This document shows positions 3,906-7,716 of a stretch of DNA of 64,000 bases, in pieces. The translations under genes and the position numbers were made by a program. Position 1 is the stretch's first letter, and each line of letters starts with the position of its first letter. A model generated the notes under the pieces. It made no database searches and had not been told where the DNA came from. It was given only the letters and a program-made list of their open reading frames with translations. Origin of the DNA: Promethearchaeota archaeon (lineage in GTDB: Archaea; Asgardarchaeota; Lokiarchaeia; Sigyniarchaeales; SOKP01); the NCBI GenBank assembly GCA_019057795.1, contig JAHLWS010000073.1, forward strand, positions 102,455-166,454. Reading direction: 5' to 3'.

Positions 3906-4205
3906 TTAAAATAACGAGCCAATTCCCGTAGGTTCTTCCTCAACTTCTTCTTCCTTTTCCTTCTTCTTTTTCTTGGAGGCTGCTTTTGCAGACACTGAAG
4001 AAGCAACCGGAGCGGCCATCACTGGAGCTGCGGCGGCAGAACTGATTATTGATTCAATGTCAGCCTCCTTAAGCCCTGCTACTACTTTTGTAAGTTGAGC
4101 TTTATCAACAGTTACATCTACAGCTTTTAATATCTTTTCGATGTTTGCTTCTGTAATTTTCTTATTTGCTTTGTTAAGCAGTAACGCAGCATATATTGAT
4201 TCCAT
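3906..4205 (-). CDS. rpl12: Ribosomal stalk protein P1 (aL12)
   Basis: MESIYAALLL start, Ala-rich hinge, acidic tail ending GIGSLF. Confidence 0.95.
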   Translation of the reverse strand: MESIYAALLLNKANKKITEANIEKILKAVDVTVDKAQLTKVVAGLKEADIESIISSAAAAPVMAAPVASSVSAKAASKKKKKEKEEEVEEEPTGIGSLF

Positions 4206-4278: not shown

Positions 4279-5235
4279 TTAATTACCAAATAAGCCTCCA
4301 ATTCCAACTTCTTCTTCCTCATCTTCTTCTTTTTTGCCTTCTTCTTTCTTAGTTGAAACATGTAGGTCTTCTCCAAGTACTATAGCCTTGATAGTGATAG
4401 CATTTGATACGGCTTTTCGGATATATTCGTCCCTCATATCGTCAAAATAAACAGGTAATTCAAAAAGAATTCCAAGAGCCTCTCGGTGTGCTTTTTGGAT
4501 TAACGGTTCAATCGTTTCTTTATCGATAATGCCTAGTTCTAAAGCCAAACTTCGTGCGCCGAAGTACGCAAATGCAAGCTCTTGTTGGAATTGTTCCATA
4601 TCCATATACAGAATTTCCTCAGGAATTATTTCACCGTCGCTCCACGCGTAATGGATTTTAATAAGCGATTTAATTGGAGCTACACCTAACTTCTTTAAGA
4701 CTGCTGCCTGTTTTACGTTAACGTAATCTCCAGCTGAGTGCGTTCGCGTATCTTCTCTAACCCAAATCGTATCGTTCTGGATTTTGGTTGGAAGCCGGAG
4801 CGTCATGTTTAATTCACTGATAACTTGTCCCGTGGGCAATCCTGTGTCCCCCTCAGTAACCCAAATATCTACTGGCGTTATCTCGTTAGGTTTAGCAGAG
4901 ACCATCCATTCATTTTCATTAAATATATTCTTTAATTCAAAGATATCTATGTTGGTAAAACATAATGCGGATTGTCCTGAAATTTTTTCGGCGAGTTCAT
5001 CTAAGTTGTCTTTTTTAGAATCGTGTTTATACTGTTCTACGGCTCTTAGTTGAAGCTTCTTTTTTGACATTCTTATGATTGCTTTCCCTCTTAAGATTTT
5101 TCGCATCTCTTGAATTTGCTTGTCGTTTAATTTAGCAACTTCTATTACAGCAATGTTTTTATGTTTTTTAAACAAATCAACTAAATGAACAACTTCATCC
5201 AATTTCCATTGATGTATTTCTTTTTTTCTGATCAC
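4279..5235 (-). CDS. rpl10: Ribosomal protein uL10 (P0)
   Basis: WK..EV N-terminus, GDTGLPTG motif, acidic tail ending GIGGLFGN; operon position. Confidence 0.95.
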   Translation of the reverse strand: MIRKKEIHQWKLDEVVHLVDLFKKHKNIAVIEVAKLNDKQIQEMRKILRGKAIIRMSKKKLQLRAVEQYKHDSKKDNLDELAEKISGQSALCFTNIDIFELKNIFNENEWMVSAKPNEITPVDIWVTEGDTGLPTGQVISELNMTLRLPTKIQNDTIWVREDTRTHSAGDYVNVKQAAVLKKLGVAPIKSLIKIHYAWSDGEIIPEEILYMDMEQFQQELAFAYFGARSLALELGIIDKETIEPLIQKAHREALGILFELPVYFDDMRDEYIRKAVSNAITIKAIVLGEDLHVSTKKEEGKKEEDEEEEVGIGGLFGN

Positions 5236-5239
5236 TATT

Positions 5240-5968
5240 TTACACCTCTATACCCTTCAAAAACTGTTCATCAATTTTTATTGGATGCCCCATTGTAGTT
5301 TTTAAAAACATAGATTTAATATTGTTATATTTATGAGGCATCTGATCAGCAACGTACTCAACGACAGCTTTCATGTTTTCAAATATTTTATCCTTATCCA
5401 TAGATTTTTTTCCTACTTTAACTTGAATACTTGGTTGCTTCTTTAATTGAATTCGAATAACTTTTAAGTATCTCTCAATTGCCACGTTTAAATCACTCGG
5501 ATTGGAAATAATACCATATCCACTTGGGAAAGGTTTCGGCATTTTACCTAGCGGTCCAAGGAATCTCGCTAAATATCGAGCTACATTTGGCATCATTTTG
5601 TCTTCTACTACGAAGAAATTGTATTTCTTTACAAATTTTTTCTTATACTTTTTTTCTTCGTTATTTAGTTTGATTAAACCGTCTTTATCCATTGTTTCGA
5701 GCCCAAGATTCTTAGCTTCAAGAAGTATCTCGTCTGACGCAATTACGCAGATGTTAGGCCTATCTTTAGTTATTATGTTATTAGGTAGGATTATTTCCTT
5801 ATCGATCCTCTGCTTAGGGTCCTTGAGGTTAATGTCTTTCAAATTCATAATGAGGTCAATTGATTCGTCAAATTTCCTGACTTTATCTTTAAAGCCTTCC
5901 TTTTTAATAATCGAATGTTTAATTGCAGCATCTAACGATTTTTTTAATAGTTTGTCATCAATTTTCAT
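5240..5968 (-). CDS. rpl1: Ribosomal protein uL1
   Basis: RKFDESIDLIMNL, LGPLGKMPKP and KTTMG motifs. Confidence 0.96.
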   Translation of the reverse strand: MKIDDKLLKKSLDAAIKHSIIKKEGFKDKVRKFDESIDLIMNLKDINLKDPKQRIDKEIILPNNIITKDRPNICVIASDEILLEAKNLGLETMDKDGLIKLNNEEKKYKKKFVKKYNFFVVEDKMMPNVARYLARFLGPLGKMPKPFPSGYGIISNPSDLNVAIERYLKVIRIQLKKQPSIQVKVGKKSMDKDKIFENMKAVVEYVADQMPHKYNNIKSMFLKTTMGHPIKIDEQFLKGIEV

Positions 5969-5971
5969 TTT

Positions 5972-6527
5972 TTACAGCTCCCCCTTTATCATGTCGTCAT
6001 ATTCTCCATTCTCAATCTTTTTCTGAATTACTCGCGGGTCCTCGCCTTCTATTGTGGCTCCAATTGACAACACTGTCCCTATTACGGTCTTTACAGCAGT
6101 TTTGAAGGTTTTATCTAAAAAGATATCTTTTTTAGCGTTAGTAACGTTAACTACCTGTTCAAGAGTTAAATCTCCAATTTTTTCCTCAGAACTATTCGAA
6201 CTCCCTTTTTCAGCGCCTAATTCTTTTAAAAGTAGTGAAGCTGTACTTGGCGTCTCTACGAATATCTCAAACTGTTTTGTCTCAGGATCGCATTCGATTC
6301 TAACGGGTACCGTTAAACCTTTAAAAAGCATGGTTTTTTCGTTAACTGCGTCCACTACGTCCTTGATGTTTGCATAGGAAATCGATTCAATTTCCGTTTA
6401 TGCCAGTAGGACCTACAGCGGGACCTTTACATAAATAAAGCGATTTGCTTTATGTAATAGGCGGTCCTCCGCTCGCAGATCCCCCTGTAACTAGTGCCTT
6501 AACAATGATTTTGTTTGTTTTACTCAT
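5972..6527 (-). CDS. rpl11: Ribosomal protein uL11, split into three exons: join(6457-6527, 6398-6426, 5972-6369), 165 aa
   Basis: ATG at 6527 preceded by GAGG. Removing 6427-6456 and 6370-6397 gives 498 nt encoding MSKTNKIIVKALVTGGSASGGPPIGPAVGPTGINIKDVVDAVNEKT..., in frame with ORF 5972-6355; first gene of the L11-L1-L10-L12 operon. Confidence 0.93.
6370..6397 (-). other. Candidate BHB-type mRNA intron 2 of rpl11 (28 nt, frameshifting, contains TGA)
   Basis: Perfect central helix GCAU/AUGC, bulges AA|A and AA|A, intron hairpin GGAAAUUG/CGAUUUCC, exon pairing UG/CA plus GUCCU/AGGAC; product ATA AAC ATC = I-N-I. Confidence 0.87.
6427..6456 (-). other. Candidate BHB-type mRNA intron 1 of rpl11 (30 nt, contains an in-frame TAA)
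   Basis: Exon helix GGACC/GGUCC, central helix GCCU/AUGU (3 of 4 pairs), bulges AU|U and AA|A, intron helix ACAUAAAGC/GCUUUAUUU (8 of 9 pairs); product CCT ATA GGT = P-I-G. Confidence 0.8.
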
Positions 6528-6870
6528 TTTCCTCGTCAAAAATTTTTATTTAAATTTTATACTCAAAATTAGTGATTTAAAGGCTAAGAAACATAAAAAT
6601 AACGCATAATCTTTCGACTTTATTCATTCCAATATCTTTTTTATATTGAAACCGTATTATTATTACGTTCTAAGTCCTTCAAAAAACTAATTTTGAACTT
6701 AGTGTTTTTTAAAAATGAAATGAAATTAAAAAATTTTATGAAAATTATTATTTTTTGTTGACATGTATTTATTTATCTAATTAATAATATCATTAATTGA
6801 GAAACAAATAGAGTAATTATAGAACTAAATCTATTCAAATTTTAAGAACATTAAAGGGAAAGGTTGAAAG

Positions 6871-7716
6871 ATGATCCTTTGGATATTAAATAGTGATTCG
6901 GGCATTAAATTGTTATATAAATCCTTTTTGAAAACAGACGCTGATGAGGATATCGTTTCTGGATTCTTAACGGCCTTTCACCATTTCTCTATGGAAGAGT
7001 TTCACCAATCACTGGAATCTATAGAAATGGGTGGATTAAGGTGGATATATATATTGGAACCAAAATTCAAATTGCTTTTCGTTGCTGCTGGTATAAAAAG
7101 TACTAAAACGGGGATTTTGATGGGTAGACTTAACGTTATAAAAGAGTCTTTTATAAAAGAATTCAAGCCAGTTTGGATAAAAAAAGGACATAGTTGGAAT
7201 GGAAATATGAATGTTTATTTACCATTTCTTAAAGTAATTGAAGATTATTACGGCCAATGGGAGGAAGTAGAATCAATAAGTCAAGTAGCGGACTTTTTTG
7301 ATATTTTAGGAGTATTTCAACAAATTTTTATTATTTTGAGAAGTATCTTAGAAAATAAAATGTATACCAAATCAAAAAACATAATTTTACAGAAAATAGA
7401 AGAAGTATTTAAGAAATTTAGAGAACAAGAGAAATTTAAAAACCAACCCGAATTTGAAAATATTACATTTTCAAAAGAGAATTGGTTCAACATAATAGAT
7501 ATCAATTTGTTGAAATGTGAAAAGGAAGTCATTACTACATATTTAAAGTCTATTCTTTACGAGACCGTTCAAATTTTAAAGGAAGTAAAAGGGAAAAATT
7601 TGTGTTTGAAGTATTTTAGTGAAGAAAGAATTTATACCTATATTTTTAATAATATGGAATTATTGGGAGATTTGGGGTTAGATATGTATTTATTAGAACT
7701 GTTTTTGTTAATCTAA
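6871..7716 (+). CDS. Hypothetical protein with an N-terminal longin-like domain
   Basis: ILNSDSGIKLLY...DIVSGFLTAF...IEMGGLRWIY pattern typical of Asgard longin/roadblock-like domains (recognised by eye). Confidence 0.55.
   Translation: MILWILNSDSGIKLLYKSFLKTDADEDIVSGFLTAFHHFSMEEFHQSLESIEMGGLRWIYILEPKFKLLFVAAGIKSTKTGILMGRLNVIKESFIKEFKPVWIKKGHSWNGNMNVYLPFLKVIEDYYGQWEEVESISQVADFFDILGVFQQIFIILRSILENKMYTKSKNIILQKIEEVFKKFREQEKFKNQPEFENITFSKENWFNIIDINLLKCEKEVITTYLKSILYETVQILKEVKGKNLCLKYFSEERIYTYIFNNMELLGDLGLDMYLLELFLLI

What the first reader, a model, noticed from the sequence alone, without database searches (positions are those of the whole stretch)
5972..6527. Core ribosomal protein gene rpl11 is split by two tRNA-type (bulge-helix-bulge) mRNA introns around a 29-nt micro-exon
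Seen in sequence: the minus strand from ATG 6527 reads MSKTNKIIVKALVTGGSASGGPPI, then a 30-nt insert with an in-frame TAA, then GPAVGPTGIN, then a 28-nt frameshifting insert with a TGA, then IKDVVDAVNEK. The unspliced message gives only a 25-aa peptide. Both inserts fold with their flanks into exon helix / 4-bp helix / two 3-nt bulges / intron hairpin. Cutting after the second nucleotide of each bulge (the EndA rule) removes exactly 30 and 28 nt, giving a 498-nt, 165-aa uL11 with an undamaged GPPIGPAVGP motif. The rest of the gene and the L11-L1-L10-L12 operon show no decay. Established: archaeal EndA plus RtcB splice BHB introns in tRNA and rRNA, and mRNA BHB introns are known mainly from cbf5 in Thermoproteota. 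Inference: this is a multi-intron, endonuclease-spliced protein-coding gene in a probable Asgard archaeon. I do not know of a description of it, and gene callers would miss it by annotating a truncated L11.
Basis: partly seen in the sequence, partly recalled or inferred. Interest (0 to 1): 0.97.

Follow-up and report, generated by a model that had tools for sequence, protein, structure and literature searches.

The report
Two tRNA-type introns split Asgard rpl11
The only gene for ribosomal protein uL11 in this Loki-type Asgard archaeon is broken by two tiny inserts shaped like tRNA introns, so its message almost certainly has to be cut and rejoined by the tRNA-splicing enzymes; in the papers I could search, this is documented for only one other archaeal protein gene (cbf5).

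Summary
On the minus strand, rpl11 reads exon 1 (6527-6457), a 30-nt insert (6456-6427), a 29-nt micro-exon (6426-6398), a 28-nt insert (6397-6370) and exon 3 (6369-5972). Removing both inserts gives a 165-aa uL11 that aligns without gaps (95.8%) to an uninterrupted homologue.

It is the genome's only rpl11. Across about 94 related Promethearchaeota loci, the same 25-codon stretch holds four insertion sites, each present in some species and precisely absent in others.

Boundaries set from protein conservation alone fall on bulge-helix-bulge geometry in 48 of 53 distinct instances; slid registers give almost none. Compensatory changes occur, and RNAalifold recovers the motif independently. Exons upstream of the inserts are under normal purifying selection. 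Two EndA paralogues and RtcB are present.

Caveats:
- No RNA evidence exists for this locus, because the public RNA contigs do not reach the introns.
- Intron 1's central helix has one internal mismatch.
- Genome-wide scans found no flood of such introns, although elf1 carries one.

The scan has flagged similar introns before on other genomes, including uL11. I did not verify those notes. I found no paper describing this outside cbf5.

The parts
6457..6527 (-). rpl11 exon 1 (71 nt; M1 to the first two bases of the Ile codon in GGPPI)
   Evidence: The upstream exons are under purifying selection in intron carriers.
6427..6456 (-). Intron 1 (30 nt, site B, phase 2, in-frame TAA). The 5' bulge is A6458 U6457 | U6456. 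The inner hairpin is 6455-6447 / 6441-6433 with loop AAAUC. The 3' strand of the central helix is AUGU at 6432-6429. The 3' bulge is A6428 A6427 | A6426.
   Evidence: Homologous site-B introns occur in 12 other distinct alleles. The central helix has one C-U mismatch here.
6459..6467 (-). Exon-1 strands of intron 1's outer helix (GGACC, 6467-6463) and central helix (GCCU, 6462-6459). The partner of the outer helix is GGUCC at 6425-6421.
   Evidence: RNAalifold predicts outer helix, AAA bulge and 4-bp helix.
6398..6426 (-). 29-nt micro-exon (third base of the Ile codon, GPAVGPTGI, first base of the Asn codon). Bases 6403-6400 (GCAU) form the exon strand of intron 2's central helix.
6370..6397 (-). 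Intron 2 (28 nt, site C, phase 1, shifts the frame). The 5' bulge is A6399 A6398 | A6397. The inner hairpin is GGAAAUUG...CGAUUUCC. The 3' strand of the central helix is AUGC at 6375-6372. The 3' bulge is A6371 A6370 | A6369.
   Evidence: Homologous site-C introns occur in 15 other distinct alleles, and all 16 have a fully paired central helix.
5972..6369 (-). rpl11 exon 3 (398 nt including the stop). It holds the rest of the N-terminal domain and the RNA-binding domain.
   Evidence: Pfam PF00298 and PF03946. The spliced product aligns without gaps to a 165-aa homologue.
5240..5968 (-). rpl1 (uL1), the next gene in the operon
   Evidence: Pfam PF00687.
4279..5235 (-). rpl10/P0 (uL10)
   Evidence: Pfam PF00466 and PF17777.
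3906..4205 (-). rpl12/P1 stalk protein
   Evidence: Pfam PF00428.

Best explanation
The two inserts are archaeal bulge-helix-bulge (BHB) introns inside the uL11 coding sequence.

Proposed mechanism: the gene is transcribed with the L11-L1-L10-L12 operon. In the pre-mRNA, each insert pairs with the last bases of the upstream exon to form a 4-bp helix flanked by two 3-nt bulges. The heteromeric (alpha-beta)2-type splicing endonuclease EndA cuts after the second base of each bulge. RtcB joins the exons, probably releasing 30- and 28-nt circles. Only the doubly spliced message encodes the 165-aa protein.

Shown here: the anatomy, the conservation of the motif at protein-defined boundaries in many relatives, covariation, selection on the exons, presence of the enzymes, and the lack of a second gene copy.

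Inferred: that EndA and RtcB are the enzymes, and that splicing actually happens on this transcript.
For: 1. Exact anatomy; removal gives a 165-aa protein with a gapless 95.8% match to an uninterrupted homologue, identical across both junctions.
2. There is a single rpl11 locus in a genome scored 100% complete.
3. In about 94 related loci, every gene has exactly one way of removing 0-3 inserts that restores the conserved motif. Insert lengths are 28-38 nt; 38 of 53 are not multiples of three.
4. With boundaries set by protein alone, the 4-bp central helix is fully paired in 18/18 (site A), 8/13 (B), 6/6 (D) and 16/16 (C). Slid registers give 0-1 and shuffles 0.07-1.1.
5. Covariation: at site A, pair 1 is A-U 7 / U-A 8 / U-G 3. 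At site B the inner stem is G-C 8 / A-U 5. RNAalifold recovers the helix-bulge-helix-bulge-helix layout without my rule.
6. The split codon always regenerates the conserved residue: S, I, V or N.
7. The upstream exons have the same synonymous excess in carriers (12,963 vs 2,234) as in intron-less alleles (12,037 vs 2,107).
8. Two EndA paralogues are present, one closest to crenarchaeal catalytic subunits 3p1z_B and 3ajv_B, plus one RtcB. Asgard EndA is reported as the broad-specificity (alpha-beta)2 type (PMC5829648).
9. A second gene in this genome, elf1, is split in the same way, with the insert present in some congeners and absent in others.
10. The cut rule matches the one established for cbf5 (PMC2738675).
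Against: - Intron 1's central helix (GCCU/AUGU) has an internal C-U mismatch. It is the only internal mismatch among the 53 instances, and the energy model leaves that helix unformed.
- Intron 2 has almost no outer helix.
- The exact allele was found only in runs of the source study.
- Established knowledge: uL11 is dispensable in some bacteria, so being the only copy does not by itself prove that it is functional.
Confidence: 0.85

Rival explanations
1. The inserts are removed from the RNA, but by machinery other than EndA and RtcB (an unknown nuclease and ligase, or RNA-catalysed excision).
For: No enzyme assay was possible. Intron 1's central helix is imperfect. 49 of 53 inserts share a hairpin with a 5-nt loop ending UC, which the classical BHB rule does not require and which could be a separate recognition element.
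Against: The boundaries coincide with the EndA cut rule at four independent sites. The inserts are far too small for group I or II ribozymes, and no Rfam family matches. EndA and RtcB are present.
Confidence: 0.06
2. The gene is decaying or is used in truncated form: the inserts are dead insertions, and the cell makes only the 127-aa protein from GTG 6355 (or none).
For: Gene callers give exactly this 127-aa product. uL11 is non-essential in some bacteria (established knowledge). Intron 1 of this allele is shorter than its homologues and has a mismatch.
Against: Exon 1 and the micro-exon stay perfectly translatable after insert removal in all 50 carrier loci, with the same synonymous excess as intron-less genes. 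The inserts keep BHB pairing by compensatory change. There is no second copy. The 127-aa form lacks most of the N-terminal domain.
Confidence: 0.04
3. The ribosome skips the inserts during translation (bypassing as in phage T4 gene 60 or yeast mitochondrial byps) and the mRNA is never cut.
For: The inserts are short hairpins with stops near the 5' edge. In this genome's intron 2, the codon AAC occurs at both edges.
Against: Matching take-off and landing codons exist in only 1 of 53 instances. At sites A, B and D the conserved residue is encoded by a codon that exists only after joining two half-codons: AG|U, AU|A, GU|A. BHB covariation with the exon strand is not explained by bypassing.
Confidence: 0.03
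4. The inserts are assembly or binning artefacts.
For: This exact allele was not found in the JGI metagenome contig collection. The independent DNA run I laid has no contig over the introns.
Against: Homologous inserts at the same codons occur in dozens of independent assemblies from different studies and habitats. The stretch is held in full by two runs and in part by many others.
Confidence: 0.01

Closest known systems
BHB intron in the cbf5 (pseudouridine synthase) pre-mRNA of Crenarchaeota (Watanabe 2002; Yoshinari 2006; Yokobori 2009, PMC2738675)
   Same: It is a short intron inside an archaeal protein-coding sequence, with a BHB-like motif built from exon and intron. The cut falls between the second and third bulge residues. 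It depends on a hetero-oligomeric EndA. It shows lineage-specific presence and loss, and it is mis-annotated as a frameshift or truncation.
   Different: The gene (uL11) and the phylum (Asgard/Promethearchaeota) are different. There are two introns in one gene around a 29-nt micro-exon. Four insertion sites lie within 25 codons, with up to three occupied at once in relatives. Turnover is rapid among close species. cbf5 splicing was shown by cDNA and in vitro cleavage; splicing here was not.
Non-canonical and multiple BHB introns of archaeal tRNA genes, including the heavily interrupted Asgard tRNAs (PMC11291895; bioRxiv 10.64898/2026.10.13.758758)
   Same: The motif, the presumed enzymes and the size range are the same. 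Strict (hBHBh') and relaxed (HBh', hBH) forms both occur. Gains are repeated and lineage-specific. This genome also looks tRNA-intron-rich: ARAGORN finds only 18 tRNAs, 10 with introns.
   Different: [quoted passage not shown] For example, the Gly-Pro codons GGACC/GGUCC form the outer helix, and removal must also restore a reading frame.
HAC1/XBP1 unconventional mRNA splicing in eukaryotes (Ire1 plus tRNA ligase/RtcB)
   Same: It is spliceosome-independent, protein-catalysed excision of a short intron from an mRNA, followed by RtcB-type ligation that changes the reading frame.
   Different: The endonuclease (Ire1) and the recognition motif (twin stem-loops) are different. It works as a regulated stress switch; no regulation is shown here.

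Membership tests
Archaeal BHB (EndA-spliced) intron | A 4-bp central helix flanked by two 3-nt bulges on opposite strands | tested here: met
   Intron 2 has GCAU/AUGC with AAA and AAA bulges. All 16 site-C homologues are fully paired.
Archaeal BHB (EndA-spliced) intron | The same feature, for intron 1 of this genome | tested here: inconclusive
   GCCU/AUGU gives 3 of 4 pairs with an internal C-U mismatch. The bulges AUU and AAA are in the right places. The helix is not formed in the energy model. 8 of 13 site-B homologues have 4/4 and the rest 3/4.
Archaeal BHB (EndA-spliced) intron | Cutting after the second bulge nucleotide on both strands yields the functional product | tested here: met
   This rule removes exactly 30 and 28 nt and gives a 165-aa uL11 identical across the junctions to uninterrupted homologues. 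It holds for all 53 instances. The rule is as stated in PMC2738675.
Archaeal BHB (EndA-spliced) intron | At least one flanking helix (h or h') next to the central helix | tested here: met
   Intron 1 has an outer helix GGACC/GGUCC that extends further, and an inner helix of 7-9 bp. Intron 2 has an 8-bp inner helix and an outer helix of only about 2 bp, the HBh' form.
Archaeal BHB (EndA-spliced) intron | The structure is maintained by compensatory change in relatives | tested here: met
   Examples are A-U/U-A at site A, pair 1, and G-C/A-U in the site-B inner stem.
Archaeal BHB (EndA-spliced) intron | The genome encodes a splicing endonuclease able to cut relaxed motifs, and an RtcB ligase | tested here: met
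   There are two PF01974 paralogues of about 200 aa, one nearest to crenarchaeal catalytic subunits, and one RtcB. The subunit roles and the specificity loop were not examined.
Archaeal BHB (EndA-spliced) intron | Demonstrated cleavage and ligation (spliced RNA, circular intron, or in vitro cut) | tested here: inconclusive
   Public RNA contigs laid on 5800-6700 do not reach 6342-6641, so there are no joints. The exact spliced junction string is not in the metagenome contig collection.
Translational bypass element (T4 gene 60 / byp type) | Matching take-off and landing codons flanking the skipped stretch | tested here: not met
   Present in 1 of 53 instances. The junction codons at sites A, B and D exist only after joining.
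Self-splicing group I / group II intron | A ribozyme core of hundreds of nucleotides | tested here: not met
   The inserts are 28 and 30 nt. No Rfam family matches in 5700-6900.

The most novel reading that the evidence does not exclude
The inserts belong to one proliferating mini-intron family. 49 of 53 share an 8-9-nt stem starting right after the 5' bulge and a 5-nt loop ending UC. The family repeatedly lands in, and is precisely lost from, BHB-competent spots in messenger RNAs of this Asgard genus. That would make rpl11 (four sites in 25 codons, up to three occupied) and elf1 live examples of intron gain and loss in protein-coding genes, in the prokaryotic lineage closest to eukaryotes.
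Probability: 0.35. Interest if true: 0.9.

Novelty: new variant of a known kind. Interest (0 to 1): 0.8.

Why it matters
In the literature I could search, protein-catalysed splicing of an archaeal coding sequence is documented for a single gene family, cbf5 in Crenarchaeota. Here a core ribosomal protein gene of an Asgard archaeon needs two such splicing events, around a 29-nt micro-exon, to make any full-length product. Close relatives show four alternative intron positions in the same 25 codons, with rapid gain, loss or exchange.

If confirmed by RNA, four things follow:
2. It would offer a tractable natural system for asking how introns arrive in and leave coding sequences.
3. It would show that splicing must precede translation for an essential protein in a cell without a nucleus.
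4. It would expose a systematic annotation error. Public databases hold the truncated 127-aa 'L11' for this locus, and similarly truncated 119-141-aa entries for relatives.

Tried and rejected
- Read laying: three metatranscriptome runs and one independent DNA run (all Logan contigs) were laid on 5800-6700. RNA contigs cover only 5800-6098, 6251-6341 and 6642-6700. There are no joints and no cover of the introns, so this says nothing either way.
- Exact-string scans of the metagenome contig collection for the doubly spliced junction and for unspliced intron 1 both gave 0 hits.
- Genome-wide scans were of three designs: BHB geometry plus reading-frame rescue, the same with stricter helix and bulge rules, and the same with the family's hairpin descriptor. 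None showed an excess over controls in which the 3' boundary was shifted out of frame (for example 60 vs 56-70, and 13 vs 13-20). These scans are blunt; they would miss both rpl11 introns and elf1-type short first exons. They do argue against hundreds of such introns with long exons in this genome.
- blastn-short of all 53 introns against the genome found no further copies beyond chance AT-rich matches.
The genome has one hppA, a continuous 726-aa ORF.
- The ARAGORN tRNA introns showed no shared signature with the mRNA introns, and their boundaries are unreliable.
- The in-window candidates from the scan are ordinary gene boundaries.
- Mapping intron states on an exon-3 tree cannot separate gain and loss from recombination, because the gene is mosaic.

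Full report
**What is in the sequence.** On the minus strand an ATG at 6527 opens rpl11. The parts are:
- exon 1, 6527-6457 (71 nt)
- a 30-nt insert, 6456-6427, with an in-frame TAA
- a 29-nt micro-exon, 6426-6398
- a 28-nt insert, 6397-6370, which shifts the frame
- exon 3, 6369-5972

ORF listing shows only a 29-aa and a 127-aa fragment. Joining the three exons in a script gives 498 nt and 165 aa. Pfam finds the L11 RNA-binding domain and only the last part of the N-terminal domain in exon 3. The downstream genes are intact L1, L10/P0 and L12/P1. The window is about 32% G+C.

**Whose genome.** The window lies in a 4.95-Mb, 87-contig assembly scored 100% complete and 7.5% contaminated. That assembly holds one rpl11 locus only. 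Named relatives are Promethearchaeota/Promethearchaeia MAGs, the Lokiarchaeia-type Asgard archaea.

**Comparative anatomy.** I fetched rpl11 from 40 related genomes and 80 named contigs and read the 5' ends.
- Other families of the order have uninterrupted genes.
- Within the genus-level clade, 50 of 94 loci carry one to three short inserts. They lie at four fixed positions within about 25 codons: A (GG|SASGG), B (PPI|GP, this genome's intron 1), D (PAV|GP) and C (GIN|IK, this genome's intron 2).
- Using protein conservation alone, every locus has exactly one way of removing inserts that restores the uL11 motif.
- Lengths are 28-38 nt, and 38 of 53 distinct inserts are not multiples of three.
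- The split codon always regenerates the conserved residue.
- Intron-less alleles have exactly the predicted spliced sequence.

**Is it a BHB motif?** The boundaries were fixed by the protein, with no structural input. I then asked whether the four exon bases upstream of the last two exon bases pair with the four intron bases upstream of the last two intron bases. That is the tRNA-like arrangement, with cuts after the second base of each 3-nt bulge; the rule is quoted in PMC2738675.
- All four pairs form in 18/18 (A), 8/13 (B, the rest 3/4), 6/6 (D) and 16/16 (C) distinct instances.
- Sliding the 3' strand by 1-4 bases gives 0-1 in total. Shuffled introns give means of 0.07-1.1 per site.
- At site A the first pair is A-U in 7, U-A in 8 and U-G in 3 instances. 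A synonymous Gly codon change is matched by a change in the intron.
- RNAalifold, run without my rule, predicts outer helix, 3-nt bulge, 4-bp helix and inner hairpin at site B, with G-C/A-U compensation in the stem. It predicts the central helix plus hairpin at sites C and A, and a textbook hBHBh' at site D.

**This genome's two introns.**
- Intron 2 is of the HBh' form. It has a perfect central helix GCAU/AUGC, AAA bulges and an 8-bp inner helix, but almost no outer helix.
- Intron 1 has a strong outer helix made of the Gly-Pro codons GGACC/GGUCC. This extends to about 18 bp between exon 1 and the micro-exon; the 131-nt region has a fold z-score of -4.95. It also has an inner helix of 7-9 bp.
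- Intron 1's central helix GCCU/AUGU has an internal C-U mismatch, the only internal mismatch among the 53 instances.
- The energy model replaces that helix with a 6x6 internal loop. Forcing the bulges open costs about 6.5 kcal/mol.
- Four other site-B introns also have only three of the four central pairs. This site seems to rely on its outer helix.

**Machinery.** The genome has two EndA paralogues of about 200 aa. One is closest to the catalytic subunits of crenarchaeal heterotetramers. It also has one RtcB. Asgard EndA is reported to be the (alpha-beta)2 type with the loop that allows relaxed motifs (PMC5829648). ARAGORN finds only 18 tRNA genes, 10 of them with introns. That fits the heavy, often non-canonical tRNA intron load described for Asgard archaea (PMC11291895; bioRxiv 10.64898/2026.10.13.758758).

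**Rivals.**
- Pseudogene or truncated use: codon differences in the exons upstream of the inserts are 12,963 synonymous to 2,234 non-synonymous in carriers, against 12,037 to 2,107 in intron-less genes. There is no second copy.
- Translational bypass: matching take-off and landing codons occur in 1 of 53 instances. Three sites need a codon that exists only after joining.
- Artefact: homologous inserts occur in dozens of independent assemblies.
- Ribozyme: the inserts are too small, and there is no Rfam match.
- Another nuclease cannot be excluded without an assay.

**Direct evidence sought and not obtained.** The single read-laying run used three RNA runs and one DNA run. The contigs stop short of the introns. 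Exact-string scans for the spliced and unspliced forms found nothing.

**Wider context.**
- Three genome-wide scans found no excess of frame-rescuing BHB inserts over out-of-frame controls. Such introns are therefore not numerous here, or the scans are too blunt.
- One earlier lead held. elf1 (C70, about 101.3 kb) is split into two frames by a 32-nt insert with central helix CCAA/UUGG. Pfam positions 1-27 and 26-76 lie in different frames. The insert is present in 11 of 24 congeners at the same codon and precisely absent in the others.
- Another lead, hppA, did not hold.
- 49 of 53 rpl11 introns share an 8-9-nt stem and a 5-nt loop ending UC. This hints at one family, but I found no further copies by sequence.
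- Intron states are scattered on an exon-3 tree; the intron-less label needs at least 10 changes on well-supported branches.
- The gene is also mosaic. Exon 3 is about 95% identical to intron-less L034 and L035, while the 5' 150 nt match a different lineage best. Recombination and gain or loss cannot be separated here.

**Annotation.** The truncated 127-aa product of this locus is in NCBI and Logan. Its 90% cluster mixes 119-141-aa truncated forms, some named '50S ribosomal protein L11', with 165-171-aa full-length forms.

**Novelty.** The held library documents confirmed splicing inside an archaeal coding sequence only for cbf5. Other cases were 'predicted', and I found no paper on Asgard mRNA introns. 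Subscription literature was not searchable.

This scan has noted similar introns on other genomes, including uL11, and some follow-ups reported spliced RNA. I did not verify those notes, and they do not enter my score.

The mechanism is of a known kind. The new points are the gene, the lineage, the two introns around a micro-exon, and the four polymorphic sites.

Noticed in passing
G000 contig C70, about 101,318-101,570 (loci L115/L120): elf1 (a transcription elongation factor 1 zinc ribbon) is split into two frames by a 32-nt insert between CPN and CGE. It has central helix CCAA/UUGG, bulges AC|A and AU|U, and an inner stem GGUAA/UUACC. The insert is present at the same codon in 11 of 24 congeners, precisely absent in the others, and absent outside the genus.
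   Followed up: partly
Loci L002-L113, rpl11 codons about 15-40: Relatives use four intron sites in rpl11, and two of them (A and D) are empty in this genome. L108 and L113 carry three introns (A+B+C) within 25 codons. Sites B and D both sit before AGGUCC and use Gly-Pro codons (GGNCC) as the outer helix.
   Followed up: yes
All 53 distinct rpl11 introns: 49 of 53 introns at four different sites share one architecture: an 8-9-nt 5' stem straight after the bulge, a 5-nt loop ending UC, and a 3' stem starting with G (or A). This is either common descent of a spreading intron family or an unrecognised requirement of the splicing machinery.
   Followed up: partly
window 5972-6700 compared with L034, L035, L040: rpl11 is mosaic. 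Exon 3 is about 95% identical in nucleotides to the intron-less L034 and L035. The 5' 150 nt are only about 59% identical to them and 83% identical to L040, whose exon 3 is 76% identical. This suggests recombination between lineages inside or just upstream of the gene.
   Followed up: partly
whole genome G000: ARAGORN with intron search finds only 18 tRNA genes (10 with introns) in a genome scored 100% complete. Most tRNA genes are probably interrupted in ways the program cannot model.
   Followed up: no
protein cluster of window:5975-6355:-: Public databases hold many truncated 'L11' entries (119-141 aa) from this clade next to full-length 165-171-aa ones. This is a systematic annotation error caused by the introns.
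   Followed up: partly
window 6251-6341: Three RNA contigs of run X18 all end at 6341, 28 nt short of intron 2's 3' splice site, with no loose end. The number is too small to interpret.
   Followed up: no
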